Origin: an uncultured Fibrobacteraceae bacterium
GTDB lineage: Bacteria; Krumholzibacteriota; Krumholzibacteriia; LZORAL124-64-63
Direction: 5' to 3'
Assembly (NCBI GenBank): GCA_964559455.1
Contig: CAZLHO010000003.1
Coordinates: 42,963 to 106,962, forward strand
Length of the DNA stretch: 64,000 nucleotides
Shown here piece by piece: positions 1-8,827 of the stretch. Position numbers and translations under genes: made by a program. The notes under the pieces were generated by a model, which saw only the letters and a list, made by a program, of their open reading frames with translations, had not been told where the DNA came from and ran no database searches. Position 1 is the stretch's first letter. Every line of letters begins with the position of its first letter.

Positions 1-596
1 AGGCATTCCGTGTAGCGGTTCCAGTGCAGGATCTTGGTCGTCTCGGAGATGATCTGGATGATGCCCTTGGGACAGGCGCGGGCGCAGGAGCCGCAGCCGA
101 CGCAGCGGTCGGGGTCGAAGATCGGCAACCCCAGCGGGCCCATCGTGATCGCGCCGAACTTGCAGGCGCGCACGCAGGTGCCCAGGCCCAGGCAGCCGTG
201 GTCGCAGCGCACGGGACCGTGGTAGAAGAGCATCGCGGCGCGGCAGTCGTCGAAGCCGGCGTAGACGTACTTGCGCAGGGCGCGCACGCCGCCCTGGCAG
301 TCCGGACAGGCGATCTGCGGCTCGGTGTCGACCAGCTCCATGCCCAGGAACGCGGCGACCTGGGTCGCGACCTCGGTCTGGCCGACGACGCAGGCGTTGG
401 GTTCGGCCTGGGCCTTGACGATCGCCTCGGCGCAGGCGGCGCAGCCGGCGAAGCCGCAGCCGCCGCAGTTGGCGCCGGGCAGCAGGTCGGCCACCCCCTT
501 GATGCGGGGGTCCTCGGCGACGAAGAAGATGCGCGCGGCGACGCCCAGTCCGACGGCGGCGACGGCGGCGATCCCGCCCAGGATGGCGGCTGGCAT
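1..596 (-). CDS. rnfB: Rnf electron-transport complex subunit B (RnfB), C-terminal part runs off window edge
   Basis: Minus-strand reading frame open to position 1; ATG at 596..594. N-terminal TM helix (MPAAILGGIAAVAAVGL), then GANCGGCGFAGC-type Cys cluster and several CxxCxxC ferredoxin motifs. Positioned after rnfA as in rnfCDGEAB clusters. Confidence 0.8.
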   Translation of the reverse strand, partial: MPAAILGGIAAVAAVGLGVAARIFFVAEDPRIKGVADLLPGANCGGCGFAGCAACAEAIVKAQAEPNACVVGQTEVATQVAAFLGMELVDTEPQIACPDCQGGVRALRKYVYAGFDDCRAAMLFYHGPVRCDHGCLGLGTCVRACKFGAITMGPLGLPIFDPDRCVGCGSCARACPKGIIQIISETTKILHWNRYTEC

Positions 597-627
597 CCAC
601 ATATCCAGACTCCCGTCTCTACGGTCC

Positions 628-1203
628 CTACTGCACCATTCCGGCGAAGCCCAGGAACGCCAGCGACATGACGCCGGCGGTGACCAGGGCGATGGCGGTT
701 CCCTGCATCGAACGCGGCACCGGCGAGAGGAAGAGCCTCTCGCGCACGCCGGCGAAGAGCACGATCGCCAGGGCGAAACCGGCGGCGCTGGCCGCCGCGA
801 AGACCACCGTCTGCAGCAGGTTGAACTCGTGTTTGATGTTGAGCAACGCGATGCCCATCACGGCGCAGTTCGTCGTGATCAGCGGCAGGTAGATTCCCAG
901 CGAGTCGTAGAGGGCGCGGCTCTGCTTCTTCAGGAAGATCTCGACGAATTGCACCAGGGCGGCGATGACCAGGATGAAGACCAGCGTCTGCAGGTACTCC
1001 ATGCCCTGGGGCGCCAGGATGTAGTAGTAGGCCAGCCAGGTGAAGATCGAGGCCAGGGTGGCCACGAAGATCACGGCCAGCCCCATGCCCATGGCCGTGC
1101 CCAGCTTCTTCGAGACGCCGCAGAAGGGGCAGTTCCCCAGGTACTGCGCCAGCAGGATGTTGTTGACGAAGATGGCGCCGACGGCCAGCAGGATCAGGTT
1201 CAC
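628..1203 (-). CDS. rnfA: Rnf complex subunit A (RnfA/RsxA)
   Basis: 191 aa polytopic membrane protein with strong similarity to E. coli RsxA (VNNILLAQYLGNCPF.GVSKKL..AMGMGLAV...LPLITTNCAV). Confidence 0.95.
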   Translation of the reverse strand: MNLILLAVGAIFVNNILLAQYLGNCPFCGVSKKLGTAMGMGLAVIFVATLASIFTWLAYYYILAPQGMEYLQTLVFILVIAALVQFVEIFLKKQSRALYDSLGIYLPLITTNCAVMGIALLNIKHEFNLLQTVVFAAASAAGFALAIVLFAGVRERLFLSPVPRSMQGTAIALVTAGVMSLAFLGFAGMVQ

Positions 1204-1213
1204 GAGCCGCCCC

Positions 1214-1825
1214 CTAGGTCTGGATGAAAATCTCGCCGCGCTTGCGGCTCCAGGCGTTCATCAGCCCGAGCAGGACGCCCAGGCAGAGGAAGGCGCCGGG
1301 CGCCTTCACCATGAAACCGAAGGGCTCGTAGCCCTCGCCGAAGACCGGCATGGCGAACCAGGTGCCGGCGCCCAGGATCTCGCGCAGCGAGCCCACCAGC
1401 GTCAGCGACATGGTGAAGCCCAGGCCCACGCTGAGGCCGTCGGCCATCGAGATCGCCACCGGGTTGCGCGAGGCGAAGGCCTCGGCGCGGCCCAGGATGA
1501 TGCAGTTCACCACGATCAGCGGGATGTAGATGCCCAGCTGCTGCGAGAGCGGGAAGAAGAAGGCCTTCATCACCAGCTCGACCAGCACGACCAGGGTGGC
1601 GATCAGCACGATGTAGCTGGCGATGCGGACCTTGTCCGGGATCACCTTGCGCAGCATCGAGATGAACATGTTCGAGAAGATCAGGACGAAGGTCACGGCC
1701 ACCCCCATGCCCAGGCCGTTCTCGGCCGTGGCGGTCACGGCCAGCGAGGGGCAGAGCCCCAGCACCAGCCGGAAGGGGGGCAGGTCGCGCCAGAATCCGT
1801 GGGTCAGCGCCTGTCGGAAGTTCAT
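1214..1825 (-). CDS. rnfE: Rnf complex subunit E (RnfE/RsxE)
   Basis: 203 aa membrane protein, RnfA paralogue pattern (LVLGLCPSLAVT..GLGMG; IPLIVVNCIILGRAEAFA). Confidence 0.95.
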   Translation of the reverse strand: MNFRQALTHGFWRDLPPFRLVLGLCPSLAVTATAENGLGMGVAVTFVLIFSNMFISMLRKVIPDKVRIASYIVLIATLVVLVELVMKAFFFPLSQQLGIYIPLIVVNCIILGRAEAFASRNPVAISMADGLSVGLGFTMSLTLVGSLREILGAGTWFAMPVFGEGYEPFGFMVKAPGAFLCLGVLLGLMNAWSRKRGEIFIQT

Positions 1826-1828
1826 CGT

Positions 1829-2443
1829 CTACGCTCCCTCGGCGGGCCGGTCGTCGCCGGCGGCCGCGATCAGCTCCAGGATCTCGGCCTTGCGGCCGCG
1901 GACCAGGTCCAGCACCTGGTTCGTACCGTCGATCATCGCCCGGGACGAGTAGGTGGCGCCGGTGATGGCGTCCACCGATCCGCCGTCCGTGCGCAGGGCC
2001 GCCGGGGCGGCGACCGTCATTCCCGTCCACTGGCGGCGGAAGGAGGGGGTCTCGACCCGCGCCCCGACGCCGGGGGTCTCGCCGTGGGCGACGATCTCCA
2101 CGCCGAGCAGCCGCTCGCGGGGCAGGTCGACGCCGATCATGATCACGATGTCGCCGGCGTAGCCGCCGTGGCCGGGGGCCTCGACGGCGATGCCGGTCAC
2201 CTCGCCGTTCTCGCGGGTGAAGAAGACGGGGTAGGACAGGCCGTCGGATTCGATCACGACCTTGTTGGCCAGCAGTTCGTCGGCGGGGCGTTCGAAGAGC
2301 CGCTCGAGGGCGGGTCCCCGCACGTAGAAGTCGCTCTGCTGTTCGATGCGCGGGGCCAGGGCCTCGCGCACGTAGGCCAGCGCGGCGGCGCTCAGCGAGC
2401 AGATCAGGCCCAGGACGACGACCAGACGCAGGATCTCACGCAT
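1829..2443 (-). CDS. rnfG: Rnf complex subunit G (RnfG), FMN-binding
   Basis: Internal ATG at 2443 gives MREILRLVVVLGLICSLSAAALA signal-anchor. FMN-binding region with conserved S/TGATYSSRA motif. 8-nt overlap with rnfD. Confidence 0.9.
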   Translation of the reverse strand: MREILRLVVVLGLICSLSAAALAYVREALAPRIEQQSDFYVRGPALERLFERPADELLANKVVIESDGLSYPVFFTRENGEVTGIAVEAPGHGGYAGDIVIMIGVDLPRERLLGVEIVAHGETPGVGARVETPSFRRQWTGMTVAAPAALRTDGGSVDAITGATYSSRAMIDGTNQVLDLVRGRKAEILELIAAAGDDRPAEGA

Positions 2444-3416
2444 CGCTCGGCACCTCCAATCCCACGATCCGGGGCGTGAAGCGATCCAGCAGCGGACTCG
2501 CCAGGTTCGCCAGCAGCACGGCGAAGACCACGCCGTCGACATGGCTGGAGAAGGCGCGGATCAGCACCAGCAGGCAGCCGGCGAGCAGGCCGTAGATCAG
2601 CATCGGCCAGGGGTTCACCGGCGAGGTGGTGGACTCCGGCGCCAGGAAGAAGGCGGCCATCACGGTGCCGCCGGCCAGGATCTGGAAGAGGGGCGACGCG
2701 GTCAGCCCCGGGGCGGCCAGCCCGACGATCCAGGCGCAGAGCGCGACCCCGCCCAAAAATCCCAGGGGCACCTGCCAGGGGATCTGGCGCAGCACCAGCA
2801 GCAGCAGCCCGCCGGCCAGCAGCCAGAGGACCATGGCGCTGCCCGCGCCGGCGGCCTGGAAGCCCAGCAGCAGGTCCAGCTTGTCGTAGGCGCCCTCGGC
2901 GCCGGCGCCCAGGGTCTTCACCAGGCGCATCGGCTCGACGATGCTGCGCTCCCAGCCGATCCCCACCAGCGAGGCGGTGGCGTCCAGGCGGGCCGGCCAG
3001 GACACCGAGAGCATGGCGTAGCTCAGGGCCACCGGGTGGACCGGGTAGCCGCCCCAGCCGCCGAAGAGCTTCTTGCCGAAGATGATCATCAGGAAGCAGC
3101 CGACCAGGACCAGCCACCAGGGCGTGTCCAGGGGCAGCATCATGGCCAGCAGCACGCCCAGGGTGGCGCTGCTCCAGTTCCCGGTGTGGTCCTTGGCGGC
3201 CAGGAAGCGGTTGCCCAGCGCGTCGAAGACGATCGAGGCGCCGACGGCCAGTCCGATCACGCGCAGCGCGCGCACGCCGAAGACGGCCACGGCCGCGACC
3301 ACGGCCGGCAGCAGGGCCAGCAGCCACAGCAGCTGCATCCGGCTCAGGGAGCTGCCGTCGTGCAGGTGGGGGCTCGAGGCGACGCTCAGCGTGGTGGTTT
3401 CGAGATCCTGGTTCAT
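2436..3416 (-). CDS. rnfD: Rnf complex subunit D (RnfD)
   Basis: 326 aa polytopic membrane protein with RnfD/NqrB-like sequence (GGTVMAAFFLAPE.TTSP). Confidence 0.95.
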   Translation of the reverse strand: MNQDLETTTLSVASSPHLHDGSSLSRMQLLWLLALLPAVVAAVAVFGVRALRVIGLAVGASIVFDALGNRFLAAKDHTGNWSSATLGVLLAMMLPLDTPWWLVLVGCFLMIIFGKKLFGGWGGYPVHPVALSYAMLSVSWPARLDATASLVGIGWERSIVEPMRLVKTLGAGAEGAYDKLDLLLGFQAAGAGSAMVLWLLAGGLLLLVLRQIPWQVPLGFLGGVALCAWIVGLAAPGLTASPLFQILAGGTVMAAFFLAPESTTSPVNPWPMLIYGLLAGCLLVLIRAFSSHVDGVVFAVLLANLASPLLDRFTPRIVGLEVPSDA

Positions 3417-3419
3417 CGC

Positions 3420-4700
3420 TCAACCCCCGTACTTCTTGGCCATCTTCACCAGCTGCACCAGCGGCCGGTGAGCGGGGCAGACGAAGGCGCAGAGACCGCA
3501 TTCGTGGCAGGCTTCGGGATGCAGGGCCAGGGCGTCGGCCATCTGGTCGTATTCGACGCAGCGGCCGAGCAGGTGGACCTGGATGTTCTGGGGGCAGGCC
3601 TGGGTGCAGCGCCCGCAGTTGACGCAGGTCAGGTTCAGCTCCGTATGCAGGCGGTCGGCCGCCATCAGGTAGACGCCGTGCTGCAGCTTGGTCAGGGGCG
3701 TCTCGTCGGTGTACTGCGCCGTGCCGTGCATCGGCCCGCCCGCGATCAGCCGTCCGCCCTCGGGCAGGGACAGCCCCCGGTTCGCCAGCAGGTCGCGCAG
3801 CCGGGTGCCCAGCGGCGCGCGCAGCGTCACCGGACGGGGCAGCGAGTCGCCGGTCAGGGTCACCGTCTTGTGGGTGAAGGGCCGGCCGGAGAGGGCGTCC
3901 AGGGCGGCCAGGGCGTTCTCCACGGTGAGCACGCCCACGCCGTGGCTGCGGTAGGCCTGGTCGACGGGGATCCGGATGCCGGTCAGCCGCGGGATCACCA
4001 CGCGCTTGAGCCGGTTCCGGTAGTCGTCGGGCAGGCCCACGACCTCCACCGCGTCGCCGAAGGTCTCGGCCGCCCAATCCCGCAACGAGCGGGAGGTCAG
4101 CAGCCACAGCTTGGCCTGGGGCTCGATCTCCGTCACGCGGCGCACGCCGTCGCGGATGTCGTCGGCGCGGGCGCGCAGCAGCAGTTCCTGGTTGGAGATC
4201 GTCGGCTCCTGATGCATCGCCAGCAGCACGATGTGCCGGATGGGCGGGTAGGCGTCCAGGTCGCCCTCGCAGTCCATGTGGCCGGGCGTGGTCCAGGGTG
4301 TGATGACGCCGCCGACGCGCAGCAGTTCCAGGCGCGAGGCCGAGGCCAGATCGAGGCCGCTCTGGGCCAGGGTCTCCTCGGGGGCCAGGGCGGGCGGCGA
4401 GCCGCGGACGATCTCGACCGCCGGCACGTGGTACCCGCGGGCGGTCCAGACGGCGCGGATCTCGTCGACCCGGCCGCCGATCGAGGCGTGGATGCAGTTG
4501 CCCAGTTCCGAGCGGCCGATCACCTGGTTGCGGGCGACCTCGTCGCCGGCCTGTACCGTGGGGCGGAAGAGGATCCGGCCCGGGTACTCCAGGGGAATGA
4601 CGACCGACTCGGGATCGGGCAGGTCGACGATCTCGGGGTCGCCCTCGATGCGGCGCGGCACGCGCGCGGCGGGTGGTTTCAACAGGTCGAGCAGGCTCAT
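3420..4700 (-). CDS. rnfC: Rnf complex subunit C (RnfC), NADH-binding, 2x[4Fe-4S]
   Basis: 426 aa. C-terminal CVNCGRCTQACP and CHECGLCAFVCP ferredoxin motifs. RnfC N-terminal domain. Confidence 0.95.
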   Translation of the reverse strand: MSLLDLLKPPAARVPRRIEGDPEIVDLPDPESVVIPLEYPGRILFRPTVQAGDEVARNQVIGRSELGNCIHASIGGRVDEIRAVWTARGYHVPAVEIVRGSPPALAPEETLAQSGLDLASASRLELLRVGGVITPWTTPGHMDCEGDLDAYPPIRHIVLLAMHQEPTISNQELLLRARADDIRDGVRRVTEIEPQAKLWLLTSRSLRDWAAETFGDAVEVVGLPDDYRNRLKRVVIPRLTGIRIPVDQAYRSHGVGVLTVENALAALDALSGRPFTHKTVTLTGDSLPRPVTLRAPLGTRLRDLLANRGLSLPEGGRLIAGGPMHGTAQYTDETPLTKLQHGVYLMAADRLHTELNLTCVNCGRCTQACPQNIQVHLLGRCVEYDQMADALALHPEACHECGLCAFVCPAHRPLVQLVKMAKKYGG

Positions 4701-4716
4701 GGACTCTCGCTTCCGC

Positions 4717-5337
4717 TCACTTCAGGTGGCAGGCCCCGCACATGACCTCGCCCTTCGCGTCGGCGAAGCGGGTCGCGGCCGCCGCCAGGTGGCAGGCGTT
4801 GCATTGGGCGTGATAGGCGTCGGCGACCGAGCGCGGCGTGTGGCAGCCCACGCATTCGTGGCCGTCGATCGCCAGCAGTTCGGCGTGGGTCGCCATGTCG
4901 GGACCGAAGTCGTCGTCGTGGCAGGAGTCGCAGCCCAGGAAGGCGGCGCCCTCGGCGGCGGCGGCCGGGTGGCAGGCGCGGCAGCCGCGAGCCTGTCCGG
5001 AGTCCGCCAGCTCGTGGCAGCCCTCGCAGCTGTGGCCGTCGATCGCGGTCAACTCGTCGTGCCCGGCCAGGTCCGGTGTGTAGTCGTCGTCGTGACAGTC
5101 GGCGCAGGGACCGGCCTCGCCGACGAGCTCGTGGTGGCAGACCGCACAGGCGTCGGTCGCTTCCTGGTGTCCCGCATGCGCGAAGAGGACCGCGCCGCTG
5201 GAGTTGCGCAGGTAGACGGTGTCGGCGCCGGCTTCGGGGGCCGGCAGCAGGTAGCCGACCAGGCCGCAGACGCAGGCCGCGACGGCGACCGTCGTCAGCG
5301 CCAGCAGCTTCCCGCGGGGATTGGAGGGATTGGCCAT
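4717..5337 (-). CDS. Periplasmic multiheme c-type cytochrome (8 CxxCH motifs) encoded immediately upstream of rnfC
   Basis: Start at ATG 5337 (MANPSNPRGKLLALTTVAVAACVCGLVGYLL signal/anchor). Eight CxxCH motifs in ~150 residues with an internal tandem duplication (C.DCHDDD[YF].PD...H.EL.AIDGH.C.GCH). Stop lies 16 bp upstream of the rnfC start. Confidence 0.8.
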   Translation of the reverse strand: MANPSNPRGKLLALTTVAVAACVCGLVGYLLPAPEAGADTVYLRNSSGAVLFAHAGHQEATDACAVCHHELVGEAGPCADCHDDDYTPDLAGHDELTAIDGHSCEGCHELADSGQARGCRACHPAAAAEGAAFLGCDSCHDDDFGPDMATHAELLAIDGHECVGCHTPRSVADAYHAQCNACHLAAAATRFADAKGEVMCGACHLK

Positions 5338-5342
5338 CTTCG

Positions 5343-5816
5343 TCACCACTCCATGCTGTCGTCGAGGATGATCTTGTGCTGGTCGTCGGGATCGATGCGG
5401 TGCCAGTGGCAGCCTTCGCGCATGCAGAAGTAGAAGGGCACCTTGATGCTCGAGATCGCGACCATCACGCAGGCGACCTGGGCGTCGCCCCGCTCGCATA
5501 GGTGGCCTTCGACCCGCAGCGAGCGGTGGCAGTGGTCACAGCGCAGGTCGGCGACCTCCTGCCCGTCGGGCAGGCGGATGTCGCTGCGCCGCTCGAAGAC
5601 GTTCAGGAAGGGGCTGAGCTCGACCCACCCCGTCCGGCCGTCCTGGGTGACGGTCTCCAGATGGATCATGTGCTCGCGAACCAGGCTCTCGCCGCAATGC
5701 GGGCAGAAGGAGTTCAGGAAGGAGCCGGTCTTGAGCACCGTCCGCTCGTTGTAGCGGTGCGCCTTCCAGTAGATCTCCTCCCAGCGGTCACCCTTGTCGT
5801 TCTTGTCGGGGGCCAT
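5343..5816 (-). CDS. Cys-rich hypothetical protein (CPHC/CDHC zinc-ribbon-like), first gene of the cytochrome-rnf operon
   Basis: 157 aa, no signal peptide, eight Cys including CxxC pairs. 5-bp gap to the cytochrome gene. GC3-rich coding frame. Confidence 0.6.
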   Translation of the reverse strand: MAPDKNDKGDRWEEIYWKAHRYNERTVLKTGSFLNSFCPHCGESLVREHMIHLETVTQDGRTGWVELSPFLNVFERRSDIRLPDGQEVADLRCDHCHRSLRVEGHLCERGDAQVACVMVAISSIKVPFYFCMREGCHWHRIDPDDQHKIILDDSMEW

Positions 5817-5883
5817 GGGTCCACCTCGATTCCGCGCCCGGAGGCGGGCGCCGTGAAATTGCTCGCTCGTCCCTAAAGAGCGA

Positions 5884-5912
5884 TGTGAACGCTAGGTGAA
5901 CAAGCGTTCACG
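5884..5912. promoter_or_regulatory. Inverted repeat TGTGAACGCT-N9-AGCGTTCAC containing a Rex-like core GTGAA-N6-TTCAC (5897..5912) in the rnf operon upstream region
   Basis: Read directly: 5885 tgtgaacgct aggtgaaca agcgttcac 5912. Arms GTGAA/TTCAC with 6-nt spacer match the Rex operator core TTGTGAA-N6-TTCACAA. Lies in an AT-rich island between the epimerase stop (5981) and the rnf operon. Confidence 0.4.
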
Positions 5913-5980
5913 ATGAGAAATAATATCATATATCACCACAATGATATGACTTAGGCGGATGGCGGAGGCCGGCCCGGGGG

Positions 5981-7621
5981 TCAGCAGCCTCCGCGCAGGC
6001 GGACCGGCAGGGCATCCTCGCAGATGTTCTCGAGTTGCCGGACCATATGCTCAAGGTCGCCGGGGGAGGTCGGGAGCTCGCCCAGGTTCCGGATCCGGTC
6101 GAGGAACTCGGGCGACGGGTCCGCCAGCAGGTCGTAGGCGTCCTCGACCCCGTCCCCGGCCAGCTGGAAGCTGAGGTTGACGTGGTCGTGGATCTGCTGG
6201 TGGAAGTCGGCGAGGTCCGGCGTCTCGCGCAGGGAGGCGCCGATGATCTCGCCGACGGTCAGCAGGAAGTCGCGGACCTGCTCGGCCGAGAACCCTTCCT
6301 GGCGGCGGCGGACGGCGATCGCCTGGGCGTAGTTGCGGACCAGCTGCCGGTCGCGCGTCCTCACGGCGGTCACCAGCACCTGGTAGACCAGGGTGATGAA
6401 CCAGCGCAGCACTTCGGGGGCCATCTTGTGATAGCCGCAGAAGCGCTGCGCGTTCTCGGGGGCGGAGACGACCTGGGCGATGCGCTCGACCAGGGCCTCG
6501 CGCTGGTCGGTCAGGATCTCGCTGATCAGCAGGTTCGGACGGCGGGCGGTGCGGTGCAGGGCCGTCTCGTTGCGCAGGCTCCAGGCGCCGTGGTGGGATT
6601 TCATGTTCTCGATCATCACCAGCAGGCGGCGCTGGATGTCCAGACGCGGGGTCGGGCGCCAGCCCGTCTCGGCCTGGGTCCGCGTCGCGTCCACGCGCAG
6701 CTGCTTGTCGAGGTAGCGCATCATCCAGGGGGCCTCGAAGGGCGGCGAGCCGGTCAGGCGGCCCAGCCACCAGCGGGCGGCGACGCCGGGCGCGGCCAGC
6801 CACTTCGGCATCAGCCGGGGCTTGCCTTCCTCTCCGTAGAAGTAGCGCGTGGCCGAACGGAAGAGGTCCTTGTGGGTGGTGACGTGGTTCGGGCTGGCGT
6901 TCAGGACGTGGATCCGCGGCAGCTGGTCGCTGATCTCCAGGGTCCGGTGGATCAGCCGCATCAGGTCCTGGATGTGGATGTAGGTGACGGCGGAATCGCC
7001 GCGGCCGCCCAGGATGCGCGCGTTCCAGTGCTCCGAGAGCCATGTCCGCAGGAAGACGTAGACCGGAGGATACTCGCACCAGTCGCTGAAGACCGCCGCG
7101 AAGCGCAGGATCGAGGCCGGGAACCACTCGGCGAATTCGTTCACCATGTCCTCGCCGCGGCGCTTGCTCCAGGCGTAGGCGAAGTCGGCGTCGGGCGGGG
7201 TCTGCTCATCGACGACCGCGTCGCCCTCGGGGAAGCGGCAGGCGGCGAGCGAGCTGGCGAAGAGGAAGCGCTTGACGCTGAGCTGCTGGGTCAGCTTCAG
7301 CACGTTGCGCGTGCCCTGCACGTTGGTCCGCTCGTACTCGGGGTGGTTCATGTGCTGGAAGTCGTAGTAGCCCGCCAGGTGCAGCACGTAGTCGGCGCCG
7401 CCGTGGTCCTTGATGCAGCGCACGACCTCGCGCATCGTGCTCCAGTTGGCGATGTCGACCTGGGTCCAGCGCAGGTTGTCGTCGGGGGGGACGCCTACCT
7501 CGCGGCGGGAGCGCCGCGCCAGGCAGAACAGTCGGTAGCGGCCGGTGGCGCTGGCGAGGAAGTGGCGTCCGACGAAGCCCGAGGCTCCGGTGACCACGAT
7601 GCCGGGCAGGCTCTTGTCCAT
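5981..7621 (-). CDS. NAD-dependent epimerase/dehydratase (SDR) family protein with long C-terminal extension
   Basis: Start at ATG 7621 (MDKSLPGIVVTGASGFVGRH = Rossmann GxxGxxG). ~250-aa SDR core followed by ~290-aa extra domain. Confidence 0.8.
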   Translation of the reverse strand: MDKSLPGIVVTGASGFVGRHFLASATGRYRLFCLARRSRREVGVPPDDNLRWTQVDIANWSTMREVVRCIKDHGGADYVLHLAGYYDFQHMNHPEYERTNVQGTRNVLKLTQQLSVKRFLFASSLAACRFPEGDAVVDEQTPPDADFAYAWSKRRGEDMVNEFAEWFPASILRFAAVFSDWCEYPPVYVFLRTWLSEHWNARILGGRGDSAVTYIHIQDLMRLIHRTLEISDQLPRIHVLNASPNHVTTHKDLFRSATRYFYGEEGKPRLMPKWLAAPGVAARWWLGRLTGSPPFEAPWMMRYLDKQLRVDATRTQAETGWRPTPRLDIQRRLLVMIENMKSHHGAWSLRNETALHRTARRPNLLISEILTDQREALVERIAQVVSAPENAQRFCGYHKMAPEVLRWFITLVYQVLVTAVRTRDRQLVRNYAQAIAVRRRQEGFSAEQVRDFLLTVGEIIGASLRETPDLADFHQQIHDHVNLSFQLAGDGVEDAYDLLADPSPEFLDRIRNLGELPTSPGDLEHMVRQLENICEDALPVRLRGGC

Positions 7622-7732
7622 GGGCGTCCCTCCGCGCGGGGGTCTGGCGTCTATCTCTATCATGATGGTTGGATTTCATCAGCGCAAGGCCGGTGTCGCG
7701 GCGGGGCCCCGGCGGGGGGAAACAACGGATCC

Positions 7733-7753
7733 GGTCGTGCGTAGGTCGTGCGT
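7733..7753 (+). promoter_or_regulatory. Tandem direct repeat GGTCGTGCGT-a-GGTCGTGCGT, 25-45 bp upstream of the 7778 start codon
   Basis: Exact 10-bp unit repeated twice with 1-nt spacer in the divergent intergenic region between the epimerase and the secreted HExxH protein. Confidence 0.35.
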
Positions 7754-7777
7754 CGACTCCAGAGAAAGGAATTCACC

Positions 7778-8827
7778 ATGACACTGCCCGCCCGGGTCCA
7801 CCTCCTCCTCTTCGCATCCGCGGTGATCCTGCTCGCCGCCCCGCCCGTCGCGGCCCGGCCCGACGGCGTCGTGCTCGACACGGCCGAACCCGAGGCCGTC
7901 CTGGCCATCCTCGACGCGCTGAACGCGGGCGCCGATCCCGCCGACGCGGCCTGGGACCGCCTCTTCGCCACCGTCGGCTACCGCCGCCTGAAGGAGCGTG
8001 AGGCCGCCATGAAGCGCGACTTCACCGACGACGACTTCCGCGCCTTCGTGCTCGACCCCGCTCTGCGCGCCCGCGCCCCCGAACTGTGGACCTCGCTGGA
8101 GGCCTGGCGCCGCGTCGATATCGCAGGCGCCGTCACGTCCGCCCGGGCCTACCTGCCGCCGGACGCGCCCATCGACGTCACCATCCACCCTTCGATCAAG
8201 CCCAAGGGCAACAGCTTTGTCTGGGACCTGGGCGGCGACCCGACGATCTTCATGTACCTGGACCCGGCGGTGCCCTCGGAGCAGCTGGCCAACACCCTGG
8301 CCCACGAGCTGCACCACATCGGCCTGGGCGCCGCCTGCGACGGCGAGGGGGAAGAACCGCCGGAGCCCCTGGACAGCTTCGCGACCTGGCTGGGCGCCTT
8401 CGGCGAGGGCATGGCCATGCTCGCCGCCGCCGGCGGGCCGGACATCCACCCGCTGGCGACCCACCCGGACACGGCGCAGTCCCGCTGGGACCGCGACGCG
8501 GCCGCGATGCCGGCGGACCTGGATCGCGTCGACGCCTTCTTCCGCGGAATCCTGGACGGCACGCTGGCCGGCGGCGCGGTTCGCAAGGCCGGCTTCGCCT
8601 TCTTCGGCTGGCAGGGTCCCTGGTACACCGTCGGCTGGAAGATGTGGACGCTGGTCGAGCGCGAGCGGGGCCGCGCGGTCCTGGTCGAGCACGCCTGCGA
8701 CTACCCCCGCCTGATCCTGATCTACGACGCATGCGCCCGCGCCCGCAACGCCGCCGGCGCCGATCCGGCCTGGCCCCTCTGGTCCGACGCCGTGCTGGCG
8801 GCTTGCAGACGAATCGCCGAAAGCTGA
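7778..8827 (+). CDS. Secreted HExxH-motif protein (putative zinc-dependent peptidase-like)
   Basis: ATG 7778 with RBS aaagga. Signal peptide MTLPARVHLLLFASAVILLAAPPVAA. HELHH motif. Confidence 0.7.
   Translation: MTLPARVHLLLFASAVILLAAPPVAARPDGVVLDTAEPEAVLAILDALNAGADPADAAWDRLFATVGYRRLKEREAAMKRDFTDDDFRAFVLDPALRARAPELWTSLEAWRRVDIAGAVTSARAYLPPDAPIDVTIHPSIKPKGNSFVWDLGGDPTIFMYLDPAVPSEQLANTLAHELHHIGLGAACDGEGEEPPEPLDSFATWLGAFGEGMAMLAAAGGPDIHPLATHPDTAQSRWDRDAAAMPADLDRVDAFFRGILDGTLAGGAVRKAGFAFFGWQGPWYTVGWKMWTLVERERGRAVLVEHACDYPRLILIYDACARARNAAGADPAWPLWSDAVLAACRRIAES

What the first reader, a model, noticed from the sequence alone, without database searches (positions are those of the whole stretch)
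1..5980. Rnf complex operon with a dedicated octaheme c-type cytochrome and a Cys-rich cytoplasmic protein
Seen in sequence: a single minus-strand operon encodes a 157-aa cytoplasmic Cys-rich protein (CPHC...CDHC), a signal-peptide octaheme cytochrome (8 CxxCH motifs, internal tandem duplication) and rnfC-D-G-E-A-B. Gaps are 5, 16, 3, -8, 3, 10 and 31 bp. Established: Rnf normally couples ferredoxin to NAD+. A multiheme cytochrome co-encoded with rnf (MmcA-rnfCDGEAB) is known from Methanosarcina, where it links Rnf to quinone-like or extracellular acceptors. Inference: this bacterial locus may encode an Rnf that exchanges electrons with a periplasmic cytochrome, for example ferredoxin:cytochrome electron flow. 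This is unusual for bacteria and testable.
Basis: partly seen in the sequence, partly recalled or inferred. Interest (0 to 1): 0.6.

Follow-up and report, generated by a model that had tools for sequence, protein, structure and literature searches.

The report
Cytochrome-linked Rnf with NAD(P)H-binding RnfB
This is a real eight-gene operon for an unusual membrane electron pump (a "large-RnfB" Rnf complex) that most likely connects cytoplasmic NAD(P)H, not just ferredoxin, to a membrane-anchored eight-heme cytochrome; the type was already noted in sulfate reducers but has never been tested, and this version carries a previously undescribed small cysteine-rich partner protein.

Summary
Window 1-5980 (minus strand) carries eight tightly packed genes: Cys-rich 157 aa, octaheme cytochrome (8 CxxCH), then rnfC-D-G-E-A-B. 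The window edge cuts rnfB at residue 200. Contigs identical to the window show RnfB is 698 aa, with a C-terminal NfnB/GltD-type 2x[4Fe-4S]-FAD-NAD(P)H module.

RnfC has lost the FMN/NADH motifs. RnfD has Glu where the flavinylated Thr should be. RnfG keeps its Thr. The same eight-gene module is syntenic in about 20 genomes from Krumholzibacteriia, Zixibacteria, Calditrichota, CSSED10-310 and Desulfocapsaceae.

The wider class is already in the literature. It combines a c3-type cytochrome, a degenerate RnfC and a roughly 700-aa RnfB. It corresponds to the "Desulfobacula toluolica Tol2-type" Rnf and the Desulfovibrio dhcA-rnfCDGEAB operon. So "unusual for bacteria" is wrong.

Most likely mechanism (inferred, about 0.45): an ion-translocating NAD(P)H:cytochrome c oxidoreductase. 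Electrons would run from the RnfB flavin through RnfA/E and the RnfG FMN to the hemes.

What appears new is the Cys-rich protein. It has no Pfam family and no fold match. It always sits beside an NfnB/GltD-type module: large RnfB, NfnAB or Stn-like genes.

Verdict: a new variant of a known but uncharacterised kind, of moderate interest.

The parts
5817..5980 (-). Upstream intergenic region with the probable promoter and operator. It is relatively AT-rich in a roughly 70% GC genome and has a GAGGTG ribosome-binding site 6 nt before the Cys-rich ATG. It contains inverted repeats GTGAACGCT/AGCGTTCAC (5885-5893 and 5903-5911) and ATATCA/TGATAT.
   Evidence: Sequence and inverted repeats. A related GTTAAC...CTTGTT motif lies upstream of orthologous operons L001, L008, L009, L013 and L014. 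The simple sigma-70 scan found no minus-strand promoter. Function is inferred.
5343..5816 (-). Cys-rich 157-aa cytoplasmic protein. It is an all-beta, double zinc-ribbon-like protein with two four-ligand sites: C38/C41/C93/C96, and C107/(C110 in paralogues)/C131/C136. The C-terminal tail ILDDSxEW is invariant and predicted disordered. It belongs to no described family.
4717..5337 (-). Octaheme c-type cytochrome of 206 aa from the c3/c7 family. It has an N-terminal hydrophobic anchor helix and an internal duplication of a roughly 50-aa, three-heme unit.
   Evidence: 8 CxxCH. Cytochrome_C7, 33.8 bits above the cut-off; partial hits to HmcA, TmcA and nine-heme models; orthologues have 8 hemes in 16 of 21 loci and 4-6 in the rest; internal repeat E 2e-19.
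3420..4700 (-). RnfC variant of 426 aa. It keeps the RnfC_N domain and both CxxCxxCxxxCP [4Fe-4S] motifs. The FMN/NADH motifs are replaced: GxGGAxFPTHVK becomes GGVITPWTTPG, and NxAECEPY becomes AMHQEPT.
   Evidence: no Complex1_51K hit; 178.7 bits against TIGR01945, below the 245.95 cut-off; alignment to solved RnfC 7zc6_C, 9eri_C and 8ahx_C; variant motif conserved in all orthologues, while the canonical RnfC of L014 has GLGGASFPTHVK; that control scores 179 bits on Complex1_51K.
2436..3416 (-). RnfD variant of 326 aa. The Thr that carries covalent FMN (T156 in A. woodii RnfD, motif TATPL) is Glu here (IVEPM). The positions matching the riboflavin-contact residues N123 and D249 are His and Glu.
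   Evidence: HMMER alignment to 9eri_D and 7zc6_D, with residue numbering counted from it. PMC11889175 gives T156, N123 and D249. Glu is conserved in all orthologues; Poribacteria have Asp and Desulfovibrionaceae have Ala.
1829..2443 (-). RnfG of 204 aa, a membrane-anchored periplasmic FMN-binding subunit. The flavinylation motif is intact (DAITGATYSS).
   Evidence: FMN_bind; best NCBIfam model is RnfG_DVU2794 (Desulfovibrio type) at 170 bits, below the 205 cut-off; TIGR01947 at 106.9, above 102; the Thr aligns with T185 of A. woodii RnfG.
1214..1825 (-). RnfE of 203 aa, a membrane subunit. The conserved Cys pair (LCPSLAVT and VVNCIILG) is present.
   Evidence: above the cut-off for TIGR01948 and PRK12405; 77-95% identical among orthologues.
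628..1203 (-). RnfA of 191 aa, a membrane subunit. The conserved Cys pair (NCPFCG and TTNCAVMG) is present.
   Evidence: above the cut-off for TIGR01943; 72-89% identical among orthologues.
1..602 (-). First 200 codons of rnfB: a membrane helix, the PF04060 Fe-S domain and two [4Fe-4S] motifs. The window edge cuts the gene exactly where a Fer4_20 + Pyr_redox_2 (NfnB/GltD-type, FAD + NAD(P)H) domain begins. The full protein is 698 aa.
   Evidence: contig L033 is 100% identical to window 1-7203 and L032 is 99.986% identical; both carry the full 698-aa RnfB. Pfam domains; 691-705 aa in all 15 complete orthologues; the C-terminal half matches NfnB 4ylf_B (E 8e-92), 5jca_L and GltD.

Best explanation
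The locus encodes a 'large-RnfB' (Desulfobacula Tol2 / Desulfovibrio DhcA type) Rnf complex. It most likely works as an ion-translocating NAD(P)H:cytochrome c oxidoreductase rather than as ferredoxin:NAD+ oxidoreductase.

Proposed electron path:
1. NAD(P)H is oxidised at the FAD of the NfnB/GltD-like C-terminal half of RnfB.
2. Electrons pass through that domain's two [4Fe-4S] clusters and the RnfB clusters to the RnfA/E iron-sulfur centre in the membrane. In canonical Rnf this is the ion-coupling step.
3. They continue to the covalently bound FMN of periplasmic RnfG.
4. They leave to the membrane-anchored octaheme cytochrome, which passes them to periplasmic or outer acceptors. The reaction could also run in reverse, importing electrons from the cytochrome pool to make NAD(P)H.

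The return branch of canonical Rnf runs RnfD FMN -> riboflavin -> RnfC -> NAD+. It is disabled here and is kept mainly as scaffold, as NqrA is in Na+-NQR.

The 157-aa Cys-rich protein is a metal-binding accessory subunit or regulator that docks on the NfnB/GltD-type module, probably through its invariant C-terminal tail.

Shown: gene content, domain architecture, motif losses and their conservation, synteny, and co-occurrence.

Inferred: substrates, direction, ion pumping, complex membership of the cytochrome and the Cys-rich protein, and co-transcription.
For: - Eight genes lie on one strand with gaps of 25 bp or less.
- The same order is found in 19 loci across four or more phyla, plus Desulfocapsaceae.
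- RnfB is 698 aa with Fer4_20 + Pyr_redox_2 + NAD_binding_8. It is 691-705 aa in all 15 complete orthologues. The NfnB-like half is 69-91% identical among the L001-L019 orthologues (60% in L020, 52% in L028), which makes it among the best conserved parts. Its closest solved relatives are NfnB and GltD-type NADPH flavoproteins.
- RnfC lacks the FMN/NADH motifs and has no Complex1_51K hit. The canonical RnfC encoded 6 kb away in L014 scores 179 bits.
- The flavinylated Thr of RnfD is replaced by Glu in every orthologue. The RnfG Thr is retained.
- ApbE flavin transferase genes flank the operon in L004, L008, L009, L010, L015 and L031.
- The cytochrome carries an N-terminal anchor and sits on the same side of the membrane as RnfG.
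- Literature: attempts to show Fd:NAD+-coupled ion gradients with D. alaskensis vesicles failed (PMC4841214).
- Literature: dhcA is cotranscribed with rnf (PMC4841214).
- Analogy: in Na+-NQR, NADH enters at the subunit that occupies the RnfB position, and the RnfC homologue NqrA has no cofactors (established knowledge; PMC12174285).
- For the Cys-rich protein: an NfnB/GltD-type module lies within 6 kb in 24 of 24 loci with enough flank, in three unrelated architectures.
Against: - There is no biochemical or expression data for this locus or any close relative.
- RnfC keeps all eight Cys of its two [4Fe-4S] motifs and a new, strongly conserved motif (GV[I/V]SPWTTPG). This argues for a retained function, possibly a third redox partner, rather than a mere scaffold.
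- In D. alaskensis, rnf mutants have strong phenotypes but dhcA mutants do not (PMC4215793). At least there, the cytochrome is dispensable or redundant.
- A non-covalently bound flavin in RnfD cannot be excluded from sequence.
- The redox span between NAD(P)H and low-potential c3-type hemes may be too small to drive ion pumping unless the final acceptor is much more positive.
- The NADPH versus NADH preference rests only on a YRRS motif seen by eye in the RnfB sequence.
- Export or anchoring of the cytochrome was not tested with a predictor.
Confidence: 0.45

Rival explanations
1. An 'inverted' ferredoxin:NAD(P)+ oxidoreductase. The pyridine-nucleotide site has moved from RnfC to the long RnfB. 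RnfC, through its two [4Fe-4S] clusters, has become the docking site for ferredoxin or another low-potential carrier, possibly the Cys-rich protein. The complex would still link ferredoxin and NAD(P)H pools with ion translocation, and the cytochrome would be only a side branch or overflow valve.
For: - RnfC keeps both cluster motifs and a conserved new motif.
- D. alaskensis rnf phenotypes fit ferredoxin oxidation, and dhcA is dispensable (PMC4215793).
Against: - The RnfD flavinylation Thr is lost in every member (Glu, Asp or Ala). This removes the cofactor that connects RnfG to the RnfD/RnfC branch in solved structures (PMC11889175).
- Fd:NAD+ assays in Desulfovibrio vesicles failed (PMC4841214).
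- The cytochrome gene is conserved as part of the operon across phyla.
Confidence: 0.2
2. One reading: a ferredoxin:cytochrome c oxidoreductase like the Methanosarcina MmcA-Rnf. Ferredoxin would donate to RnfB and electrons would leave through RnfG to the cytochrome.
For: - The gene order, with cytochrome first and then rnfCDGEAB, matches mmcA-rnfCDGEAB (10.1101/2022.07.20.500911).
- The N-terminal 200 aa of RnfB align with solved RnfB and with the Methanosarcina RnfB model.
- The exit route through RnfG is intact.
Against: - The C-terminal ferredoxin-like domains of canonical RnfB are replaced by a 500-aa NfnB/GltD-type FAD/NAD(P)H module that is highly conserved.
- The Methanosarcina Rnf is reported to keep the cofactor sites of RnfC and RnfD, whereas this one does not.
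- Ferredoxin could still be an additional donor, so this model is incomplete rather than excluded.
Confidence: 0.15
3. A flavin-based electron-bifurcating or confurcating device. The NfnB-type FAD on RnfB would split the two electrons of NADPH between a high-potential branch (RnfA/E -> RnfG -> cytochrome) and a low-potential branch (ferredoxin or the Cys-rich metalloprotein). In reverse it would combine them.
For: - The RnfB extension is most similar to NfnB and Stn-type bifurcating modules.
- The Cys-rich protein also accompanies NfnAB and Stn-like gene sets, which are known bifurcating enzyme families.
Against: - No second cofactor branch next to the FAD, equivalent to the NfnA [2Fe-2S], is evident in the operon.
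- GltD-type modules also work without bifurcation.
- Whether the Cys-rich protein binds iron rather than zinc is unknown.
Confidence: 0.1
4. A decaying or non-functional Rnf paralogue whose lost motifs reflect pseudogenisation.
For: Canonical cofactor motifs are lost in RnfC and RnfD.
Against: - All ORFs are intact.
- Replacement motifs are themselves conserved across phyla.
- RnfE, RnfA and the RnfB flavin domain are 70-95% identical among the Krumholzibacteriia, Zixibacteria and Calditrichota orthologues L001-L019.
- The Cys-rich gene is under purifying selection.
- Rnf2 subunits of the same type are detected by proteomics in D. multivorans (PMC5109826).
Confidence: 0.02

Closest known systems
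Desulfobacula toluolica Tol2-type Rnf ('Rnf2' of Desulfococcus multivorans), as described in PMC5109826
   Same: RnfB is about 700 aa with an added NAD-binding region. RnfC lacks the NADH-dehydrogenase (Complex1_51K) and SLBB domains. A cytochrome gene sits in the cluster. It coexists with a canonical Rnf in the same genome; here that is seen in relative L014.
   Different: - It occurs in a different phylum: relatives here are labelled Krumholzibacteriia, Zixibacteria and Calditrichota.
- The cytochrome is an anchored octaheme of 206 aa rather than a small 15-kDa protein.
- There is an extra conserved Cys-rich gene at the head of the operon.
- I could not obtain the Tol2 or D. multivorans sequences, so the comparison rests on the paper's description.
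Desulfovibrio dhcA-rnfCDGEAB(F) operon (D. alaskensis G20, D. vulgaris; PMC4841214, PMC4215793). Checked here in Salidesulfovibrio onnuriiensis CP040751.1 (L036).
   Same: A multiheme c3-family cytochrome is the first gene, followed by rnfCDGEAB on one strand. It is cotranscribed in G20. In L036, RnfC has the FMN loop deleted, RnfD has no Thr at the flavinylation site, and RnfB is 708 aa with Fer4_20 + Pyr_redox_2. The best NCBIfam model for RnfG here is the Desulfovibrio-specific one.
   Different: - The cytochrome is decaheme (10 CxxCH, 270 aa) rather than octaheme.
- RnfC is shorter (390 aa).
- There is no Cys-rich gene.
- apbE (rnfF) is inside the G20 operon but absent from this window.
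- RnfD has Ala rather than Glu at the lost Thr position.
- RnfG here scores below that model's cut-off (170 vs 205 bits).
Methanosarcina acetivorans MmcA-RnfCDGEABX
   Same: A multiheme cytochrome gene heads the rnf operon. Electrons are thought to leave Rnf through the cytochrome rather than to NAD+.
   Different: It is archaeal, the donor is ferredoxin and the acceptor is methanophenazine. The cofactor sites of RnfC and RnfD are reported conserved. RnfB is short (the NCBIfam rnfB_Methano profile is 265 positions). There is no Cys-rich protein. Homology between MmcA and this cytochrome was not tested.
Canonical Rnf (A. woodii 9eri, C. tetanomorphum 7zc6, A. vinelandii 8ahx): ferredoxin:NAD+ oxidoreductase
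   Same: The six homologous subunits are present. The RnfA/E Cys pairs, the RnfG flavinylation site, the N-terminal RnfB clusters and the RnfC [4Fe-4S] motifs are all present.
   Different: The RnfC FMN/NADH site is absent. The RnfD covalent-FMN Thr is absent. The RnfB C-terminal ferredoxin-like domains are replaced by an NfnB/GltD-type flavoprotein domain. Two extra genes are present: the cytochrome and the Cys-rich protein.
Na+-NQR (NqrABCDEF)
   Same: The logic is similar. NADH enters through a flavoprotein at the RnfB position (NqrF). The RnfC homologue NqrA has lost its redox cofactors. Electrons cross through NqrD/E to the periplasmic flavoprotein NqrC, the RnfG homologue.
   Different: The NADH module is unrelated (an FNR-like NqrF rather than NfnB/GltD-like). 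NqrB keeps covalent FMN and riboflavin and reduces quinone. Here RnfD has lost the FMN site and the likely acceptor is a cytochrome. The resemblance is convergent and does not indicate membership.
NfnB / GltD small-subunit family (4ylf_B, 5jca_L, 2vdc_G) and Stn/Hyl-type fusions (8oh5_C, 9bov_A)
   Same: The C-terminal 500 aa of RnfB has the same Fer4_20 + FAD + NAD(P)H architecture, with E 1e-68 to 1e-133.
   Different: Here the module is fused to a membrane-anchored RnfB and has no NfnA or GltB partner in the operon.

Membership tests
Canonical Rnf (ferredoxin:NAD+ oxidoreductase) | Six subunits RnfA, B, C, D, E and G encoded together | tested here: met
   Pfam and NCBIfam hits for all six. 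RnfA and RnfE score above the curated cut-offs. RnfC and RnfD score below the TIGR cut-offs.
Canonical Rnf (ferredoxin:NAD+ oxidoreductase) | RnfC with an FMN/NADH-binding Complex1_51K domain (GxGGAxFP and ECEP motifs) | tested here: not met
   No PF01512 hit at E<0.01. Motifs are replaced in the alignment to 7zc6_C, 9eri_C and 8ahx_C. The control canonical RnfC from L014 scores 179 bits.
Canonical Rnf (ferredoxin:NAD+ oxidoreductase) | RnfD Thr carrying covalent FMN (T156 in A. woodii) | tested here: not met
   Glu aligns with T156. It is conserved as Glu in all orthologues.
Canonical Rnf (ferredoxin:NAD+ oxidoreductase) | RnfG Thr carrying covalent FMN (T185 in A. woodii) | tested here: met
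   The Thr of TGAT aligns with T185 of 9eri_G.
Canonical Rnf (ferredoxin:NAD+ oxidoreductase) | Ferredoxin-dependent NAD+ reduction coupled to Na+/H+ transport | not testable with these tools
   This needs biochemistry.
Large-RnfB ('Tol2-type' / DhcA-type) Rnf | RnfB of about 700 aa with an added NAD(P)-binding flavoprotein region | tested here: met
   Not visible in the window, where the gene is cut at residue 200. Contigs 100% and 99.986% identical to the window give 698 aa with Fer4_20 + Pyr_redox_2 + NAD_binding_8.
Large-RnfB ('Tol2-type' / DhcA-type) Rnf | [quoted passage not shown] | tested here: met
   No Complex1_51K hit. SLBB scores only 19.7 bits, below the cut-off of 27.
Large-RnfB ('Tol2-type' / DhcA-type) Rnf | c-type cytochrome gene in the cluster | tested here: met
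   The octaheme cytochrome lies immediately upstream of rnfC.
Large-RnfB ('Tol2-type' / DhcA-type) Rnf | Sequence relatedness to the Desulfobacula and Desulfococcus proteins themselves | not tested
   Those sequences could not be fetched. Relatedness was shown only to Desulfovibrionaceae (L036), Desulfocapsaceae (L028), Poribacteria (L031) and Syntrophobacterales (L030) members.
Cytochrome c3/c7 superfamily (multiheme, periplasmic) | Multiple CxxCH heme-attachment motifs and a profile match | tested here: met
   8 CxxCH. PF14522 scores 33.8 bits, above the 24.8 cut-off.
Cytochrome c3/c7 superfamily (multiheme, periplasmic) | Export to the periplasm (signal peptide or signal anchor) | tested here: inconclusive
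   The N-terminal hydrophobic helix is conserved, but no predictor was available and cleavage is undetermined.
MmcA-type Rnf cytochrome (Methanosarcina) | Homology of the cytochrome to MmcA | not tested
Only the gene-order analogy is known.
Double zinc ribbon (Pfam DZR, PF12773), for the Cys-rich protein | Profile match above the gathering threshold | tested here: not met

The most novel reading that the evidence does not exclude
The large-RnfB Rnf would be a third functional class of the Rnf/Nqr family. It would be a quinone-independent, ion-pumping NAD(P)H:cytochrome c oxidoreductase that wires cytoplasmic pyridine nucleotides directly to periplasmic or extracellular multiheme electron transfer, or the reverse. 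It would be widespread in uncultured FCB-group phyla as well as in sulfate reducers. The 157-aa Cys-rich protein would be a previously unrecognised dedicated subunit or regulator of NfnB/GltD-type flavin modules, shared by Rnf, Nfn and Stn-like enzymes.
Probability: 0.3. Interest if true: 0.8.

Novelty: new variant of a known kind. Interest (0 to 1): 0.5.

Why it matters
Rnf in sulfate reducers and many uncultured anaerobes is routinely annotated and modelled as ferredoxin:NAD+ oxidoreductase. This locus and its relatives lack the NADH site on RnfC and the FMN site on RnfD. They carry an NfnB-type NAD(P)H flavoprotein on RnfB and a dedicated cytochrome.

If they are NAD(P)H:cytochrome c pumps, metabolic reconstructions for Desulfobacterota, Krumholzibacteriota, Zixibacteria, Calditrichota and Poribacteria would need revising. 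A quinone-free route between cytoplasmic NAD(P)H and periplasmic or extracellular electron transfer would be added to bioenergetics.

The Cys-rich protein gives a concrete, testable handle. It links three enzyme systems (large-RnfB Rnf, NfnAB and Stn-like complexes) through their shared flavin module.

Tried and rejected
- Regulatory RNA or tRNA in or near the operon: none found. The Rfam gathering scan of the whole window gave 0 hits and ARAGORN gave 0.
- Sigma-70 promoter and intrinsic terminator scan of 5300-6200: no minus-strand promoter and no terminator. This is uninformative for a lineage that may use other promoter types.
- Rex- or CRP-like operator: the GTGAAC-N-GTTCAC repeats have the wrong spacing for the Rex or CRP consensus I recall, and the exact palindrome is not conserved. 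It is kept only as a passing note.
- Cytochrome c oxidase as part of the system: the caa3-type cox genes lie next to rnfB only in the window's own population, not in any other locus. They are not counted as part of the module.
- A second rnf cluster or other multiheme cytochromes in the window: none.
- Pereira et al. 2011 could not be read; it is not held. One literature query was malformed. Searches for 'RnfB + GltD', 'RnfB + glutamate synthase' and 'Rnf + Krumholzibacteri' gave nothing relevant.
- A MAFFT run timed out and was repeated with faster settings.
- The idea that degenerate RnfC is unique to this clade was rejected. Only 53 of the 150 best RnfC-like cluster representatives carry the canonical GxGGxxFP motif.

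Full report
**1. What is in the sequence**

Window 1-5980 carries eight ORFs on the minus strand of a roughly 70% GC genome:
- Cys-rich protein, 157 aa (5343-5816).
- c-type cytochrome, 206 aa (4717-5337).
- rnfC (3420-4700).
- rnfD (2436-3416).
- rnfG (1829-2443).
- rnfE (1214-1825).
- rnfA (628-1203).
- rnfB, starting at 602 and running off the window.

The rnfA-rnfB gap is 25 bp, or 31 bp if the second ATG is used. Pfam and NCBIfam identify all six Rnf subunits.

The cytochrome has exactly eight CxxCH motifs and matches Cytochrome_C7 above the cut-off. It is the only ORF in the 64-kb window with two or more CxxCH motifs. Its two halves share a roughly 50-aa repeat: 57% identity, E 2e-19. 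Its N-terminus is a single hydrophobic helix, conserved in orthologues. I read this as a membrane anchor. No signal-peptide predictor was available.

The Cys-rich ORF is a real gene. It has 52 homologues, nearly all exactly 157 aa, at 44-79% identity. Seven Cys are invariant. dN/dS is 0.14-0.57.

**2. What the window hides**

Two metagenome contigs overlap window 1-7203, one at 100% identity (L033) and one at 99.986% (L032). Both continue past coordinate 1. They show that RnfB is 698 aa.

The 200 residues visible in the window are the usual membrane helix, the PF04060 Fe-S domain and two [4Fe-4S] motifs. The window edge falls exactly where a Fer4_20 + Pyr_redox_2 + NAD_binding_8 region begins. 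That region is most similar to NfnB and to the glutamate synthase small subunit, with E 1e-68 to 1e-92. It is also similar to the same module in Stn/Hyl-type fusion proteins, with E down to 1e-133. It therefore brings two more [4Fe-4S] clusters, an FAD and a NAD(P)H site. A YRRS motif after the second Rossmann strand suggests NADPH; that is my inference from the sequence.

In all 15 orthologous loci with a complete gene, RnfB is 691-705 aa. The flavoprotein half is 69-91% identical among the L001-L019 orthologues.

**3. Cofactor sites**

I aligned the subunits to the solved RnfC proteins 7zc6_C, 9eri_C and 8ahx_C.
- The FMN loop GxGGAxFPTHVK reads GGVITPWTTPG here.
- The NxAECEPY motif reads AMHQEPT.
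- There is no Complex1_51K hit.
- Both CxxCxxCxxxCP [4Fe-4S] motifs are kept.

In RnfD, the Thr that carries covalent FMN in A. woodii (T156; PMC11889175) aligns with Glu. RnfG keeps its flavinylated Thr, which aligns with T185.

These are not private mutations. Every orthologue has G(V/A)(I/V)SPW in RnfC and (V/I)EP(M/L/V) in RnfD. One relative (L014) also encodes a canonical rnfABCDGE 6 kb away, with GLGGASFPTHVK, ECEP and TGATPL. The RnfC of that control scores 179 bits on Complex1_51K.

**4. Distribution**

I searched one genome per species with the Cys-rich alignment and found 27 loci.
- In 19 loci the order Cys-rich, cytochrome, rnfC, D, G, E, A, B is identical. These MAGs are labelled Krumholzibacteriia, Zixibacteria or Calditrichota, plus some with doubtful labels.
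- In CSSED10-310 (L020) the Cys-rich gene sits directly after the long rnfB instead.
- A Desulfocapsaceae genome (L028) has the same eight genes. Its Cys-rich protein is 34% identical and its cytochrome is octaheme.
- The cytochrome has eight hemes in 16 of 21 loci.
- ApbE genes flank the operon in six loci.

The architecture without the Cys-rich gene is wider:
- Poribacteria (L031): tetraheme c3, rnfCDG, rnfEA, a 705-aa RnfB and apbE.
- Syntrophobacterales (L030): a tetraheme c3 cytochrome with rnfC, rnfD, rnfG and a truncated rnfE; the locus holds no rnfA or rnfB.
- Desulfovibrionaceae, Salidesulfovibrio onnuriiensis (L036): a decaheme cytochrome, a 390-aa RnfC with the FMN loop deleted, an RnfD without the Thr, and a 708-aa RnfB.

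Among the 150 best RnfC-like cluster representatives in 1.8 billion proteins, only 53 have the canonical FMN loop. Degenerate RnfC is therefore common.

**5. What is already known**

A decaheme cytochrome gene (dhcA) heads and is cotranscribed with rnfCDGEABF in Desulfovibrio alaskensis. The rnf mutants fail to grow on H2, formate or ethanol with sulfate, whereas dhcA mutants show almost no phenotype. Attempts to show Fd:NAD+-coupled ion gradients in vesicles failed (PMC4841214, PMC4215793).

For Desulfobacula toluolica Tol2 and Desulfococcus multivorans, the literature already describes 'a different type of Rnf complex'. It has a roughly 700-aa RnfB containing NAD-binding sites, an RnfC lacking the NADH-dehydrogenase and SLBB domains, and a small cytochrome in the cluster. 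The authors state that a different mode of action 'awaits experimental verification' (PMC5109826).

The Methanosarcina MmcA-Rnf is the archaeal analogue. It is reported to keep the RnfC and RnfD cofactor sites.

The window's operon belongs to a class that has been noticed but never characterised. I found no paper mentioning the Cys-rich protein, the RnfD Thr loss, or this class outside Desulfobacterota. My searches were limited to the held open-access library.

**6. The Cys-rich protein**

The invariant residues form two four-ligand knuckle sites: C38/C41/C93/C96, and C107/(C110 in paralogues)/C131/C136. The invariant C-terminal tail ILDDSxEW is predicted disordered.

Its genomic company is informative.
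- In Syntrophales, a fused two-domain version directly follows nfnA- and nfnB-like genes.
- In Acidobacteriota, it lies next to NuoE-like and NuoF-like genes and a 1276-aa Fer2_4 + Fer4_20 + Pyr_redox_2 + molybdopterin protein, which resembles the Stn/Hyl type.

An NfnB/GltD-type module lies within 6 kb in all 24 loci that have enough flanking sequence. In the tandem forms only the last domain keeps the tail.

I infer that it is an accessory subunit or regulator of that flavin module, docking by its C-terminus. Whether it binds Zn or Fe, and whether it is redox-active, is unknown.

**7. Most likely mechanism**

In solved Rnf complexes electrons run in this order:
1. ferredoxin
2. RnfB clusters
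3. RnfA/E cluster
4. RnfG FMN
5. RnfD FMN
6. RnfD riboflavin
7. RnfC clusters
8. RnfC FMN
9. NAD+ (PMC11889175).

Here the second half of that path lacks two flavin sites. The first half has gained a NAD(P)H-FAD entry, and RnfG faces a co-encoded anchored cytochrome. The simplest reading is an ion-translocating NAD(P)H:cytochrome c oxidoreductase that is reversible in principle. RnfC and RnfD would be retained largely as scaffold. This resembles Na+-NQR, where NADH enters at the RnfB position and NqrA has no cofactors. I give this reading about 0.45.

The main caveats:
- RnfC keeps its clusters and has a conserved new motif, which suggests a third partner.
- dhcA is dispensable in Desulfovibrio.
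- The redox span between NAD(P)H and c3-type hemes is small.

Decay is excluded by conservation.

**8. Verdict**

This is a new variant of a known but biochemically uncharacterised kind. It occurs in a new set of phyla, with an octaheme anchored cytochrome and a previously undescribed Cys-rich partner that also accompanies Nfn- and Stn-type enzymes.

Interest is moderate (0.5). It would be high if the NAD(P)H:cytochrome pump function or the role of the Cys-rich protein were shown experimentally.

Noticed in passing
L032:9021-12576 (minus strand; the same population as the window, just beyond window coordinate 1): A caa3-type cytochrome c oxidase cluster lies convergent to rnfB, about 320 bp after its stop. 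It comprises COX4_pro, COX3, COX1 and a COX2 with a fused cytochrome c domain. In this organism the cytochrome pool could therefore be drained to O2. The adjacency is not seen in any other locus.
   Followed up: partly
window 5885-5911 and 5918-5952: Operator-like inverted repeats lie in the promoter region. They include GTGAACGCT/AGCGTTCAC (perfect 9-nt arms, 9 nt apart), a third GTGAAC half-site, and ATATCA/TGATAT. A related GTTAAC...CTTGTT motif lies upstream of the orthologous operons in L001, L008, L009, L013 and L014.
   Followed up: partly
L014:1-4463 (minus strand): A Krumholzibacteriia MAG carries a canonical rnfABCDGE cluster with normal RnfC and RnfD motifs about 6 kb upstream of the cytochrome-linked variant. 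This mirrors the colocalised rnf1 and rnf2 clusters reported for Desulfococcus multivorans (PMC5109826).
   Followed up: partly
L021:7594-10873, L025, L026, L027 (Syntrophales); L022:3105-10405, L023, L024 (Acidobacteriota): Proteins with two fused Cys-rich domains (about 300 aa) lie directly after nfnA- and nfnB-like genes in Syntrophales. In Acidobacteriota they lie divergent from a NuoE/NuoF/Fer4_20-Pyr_redox_2-molybdopterin (Stn/Hyl-like) gene set. No rnf genes are nearby in either case.
   Followed up: yes
Best 150 RnfC-like cluster representatives (P0173-P0316 plus six earlier ids: P0067, P0075, P0092, P0125, P0141, P0142): Only 53 of the 150 RnfC-like proteins most similar to the window's RnfC carry the canonical GxGGxxFP FMN loop. 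Many different degenerate versions exist, for example in Poribacteria, Syntrophobacterales and Desulfohalobiaceae. The last of these (L037) has a short RnfB, no cytochrome and an RseC gene after rnfB. Many genes annotated as 'RnfC' may therefore not bind NADH.
   Followed up: partly
L031:11270-11819: A MazE-antitoxin-like gene and a small ORF are inserted between rnfG and rnfE in the Poribacteria rnf operon.
   Followed up: no
L034:679-2733: In one assembly of the same population as the window, the long rnfB is called as two ORFs (254 aa and 380 aa) separated by about 150 bp. This is either a frameshift or assembly error, or a genuine split variant.
   Followed up: no
window 5981-7663 (minus) and 7748-8827 (plus): The upstream neighbour is a 560-aa NAD-dependent epimerase/dehydratase-family protein with a roughly 300-aa C-terminal extension that has no Pfam match. 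It is syntenic in L001, L003, L004 and L007, where it ends immediately before the Cys-rich gene. Beyond it lies a DUF5700 putative zinc peptidase, which is also near the operon in L001.
   Followed up: partly
L001, L002 (record titles): The two closest relatives of the window's operon are MAGs labelled 'uncultured Fibrobacteraceae'. Most other relatives are labelled Krumholzibacteriia, and single ones Gemmatimonadales or Thermoanaerobaculales. The taxonomic labels of these MAGs look inconsistent, so the window's lineage is probably Krumholzibacteriota-like.
   Followed up: no
L004:17251-18162, L008:17387-18367, L009:13186-14106, L010:4824-5603, L015:331-1176: ApbE flavin-transferase genes lie immediately next to the operon, convergent after rnfB or upstream, in five relatives. 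None is found in the 64-kb window.
   Followed up: partly
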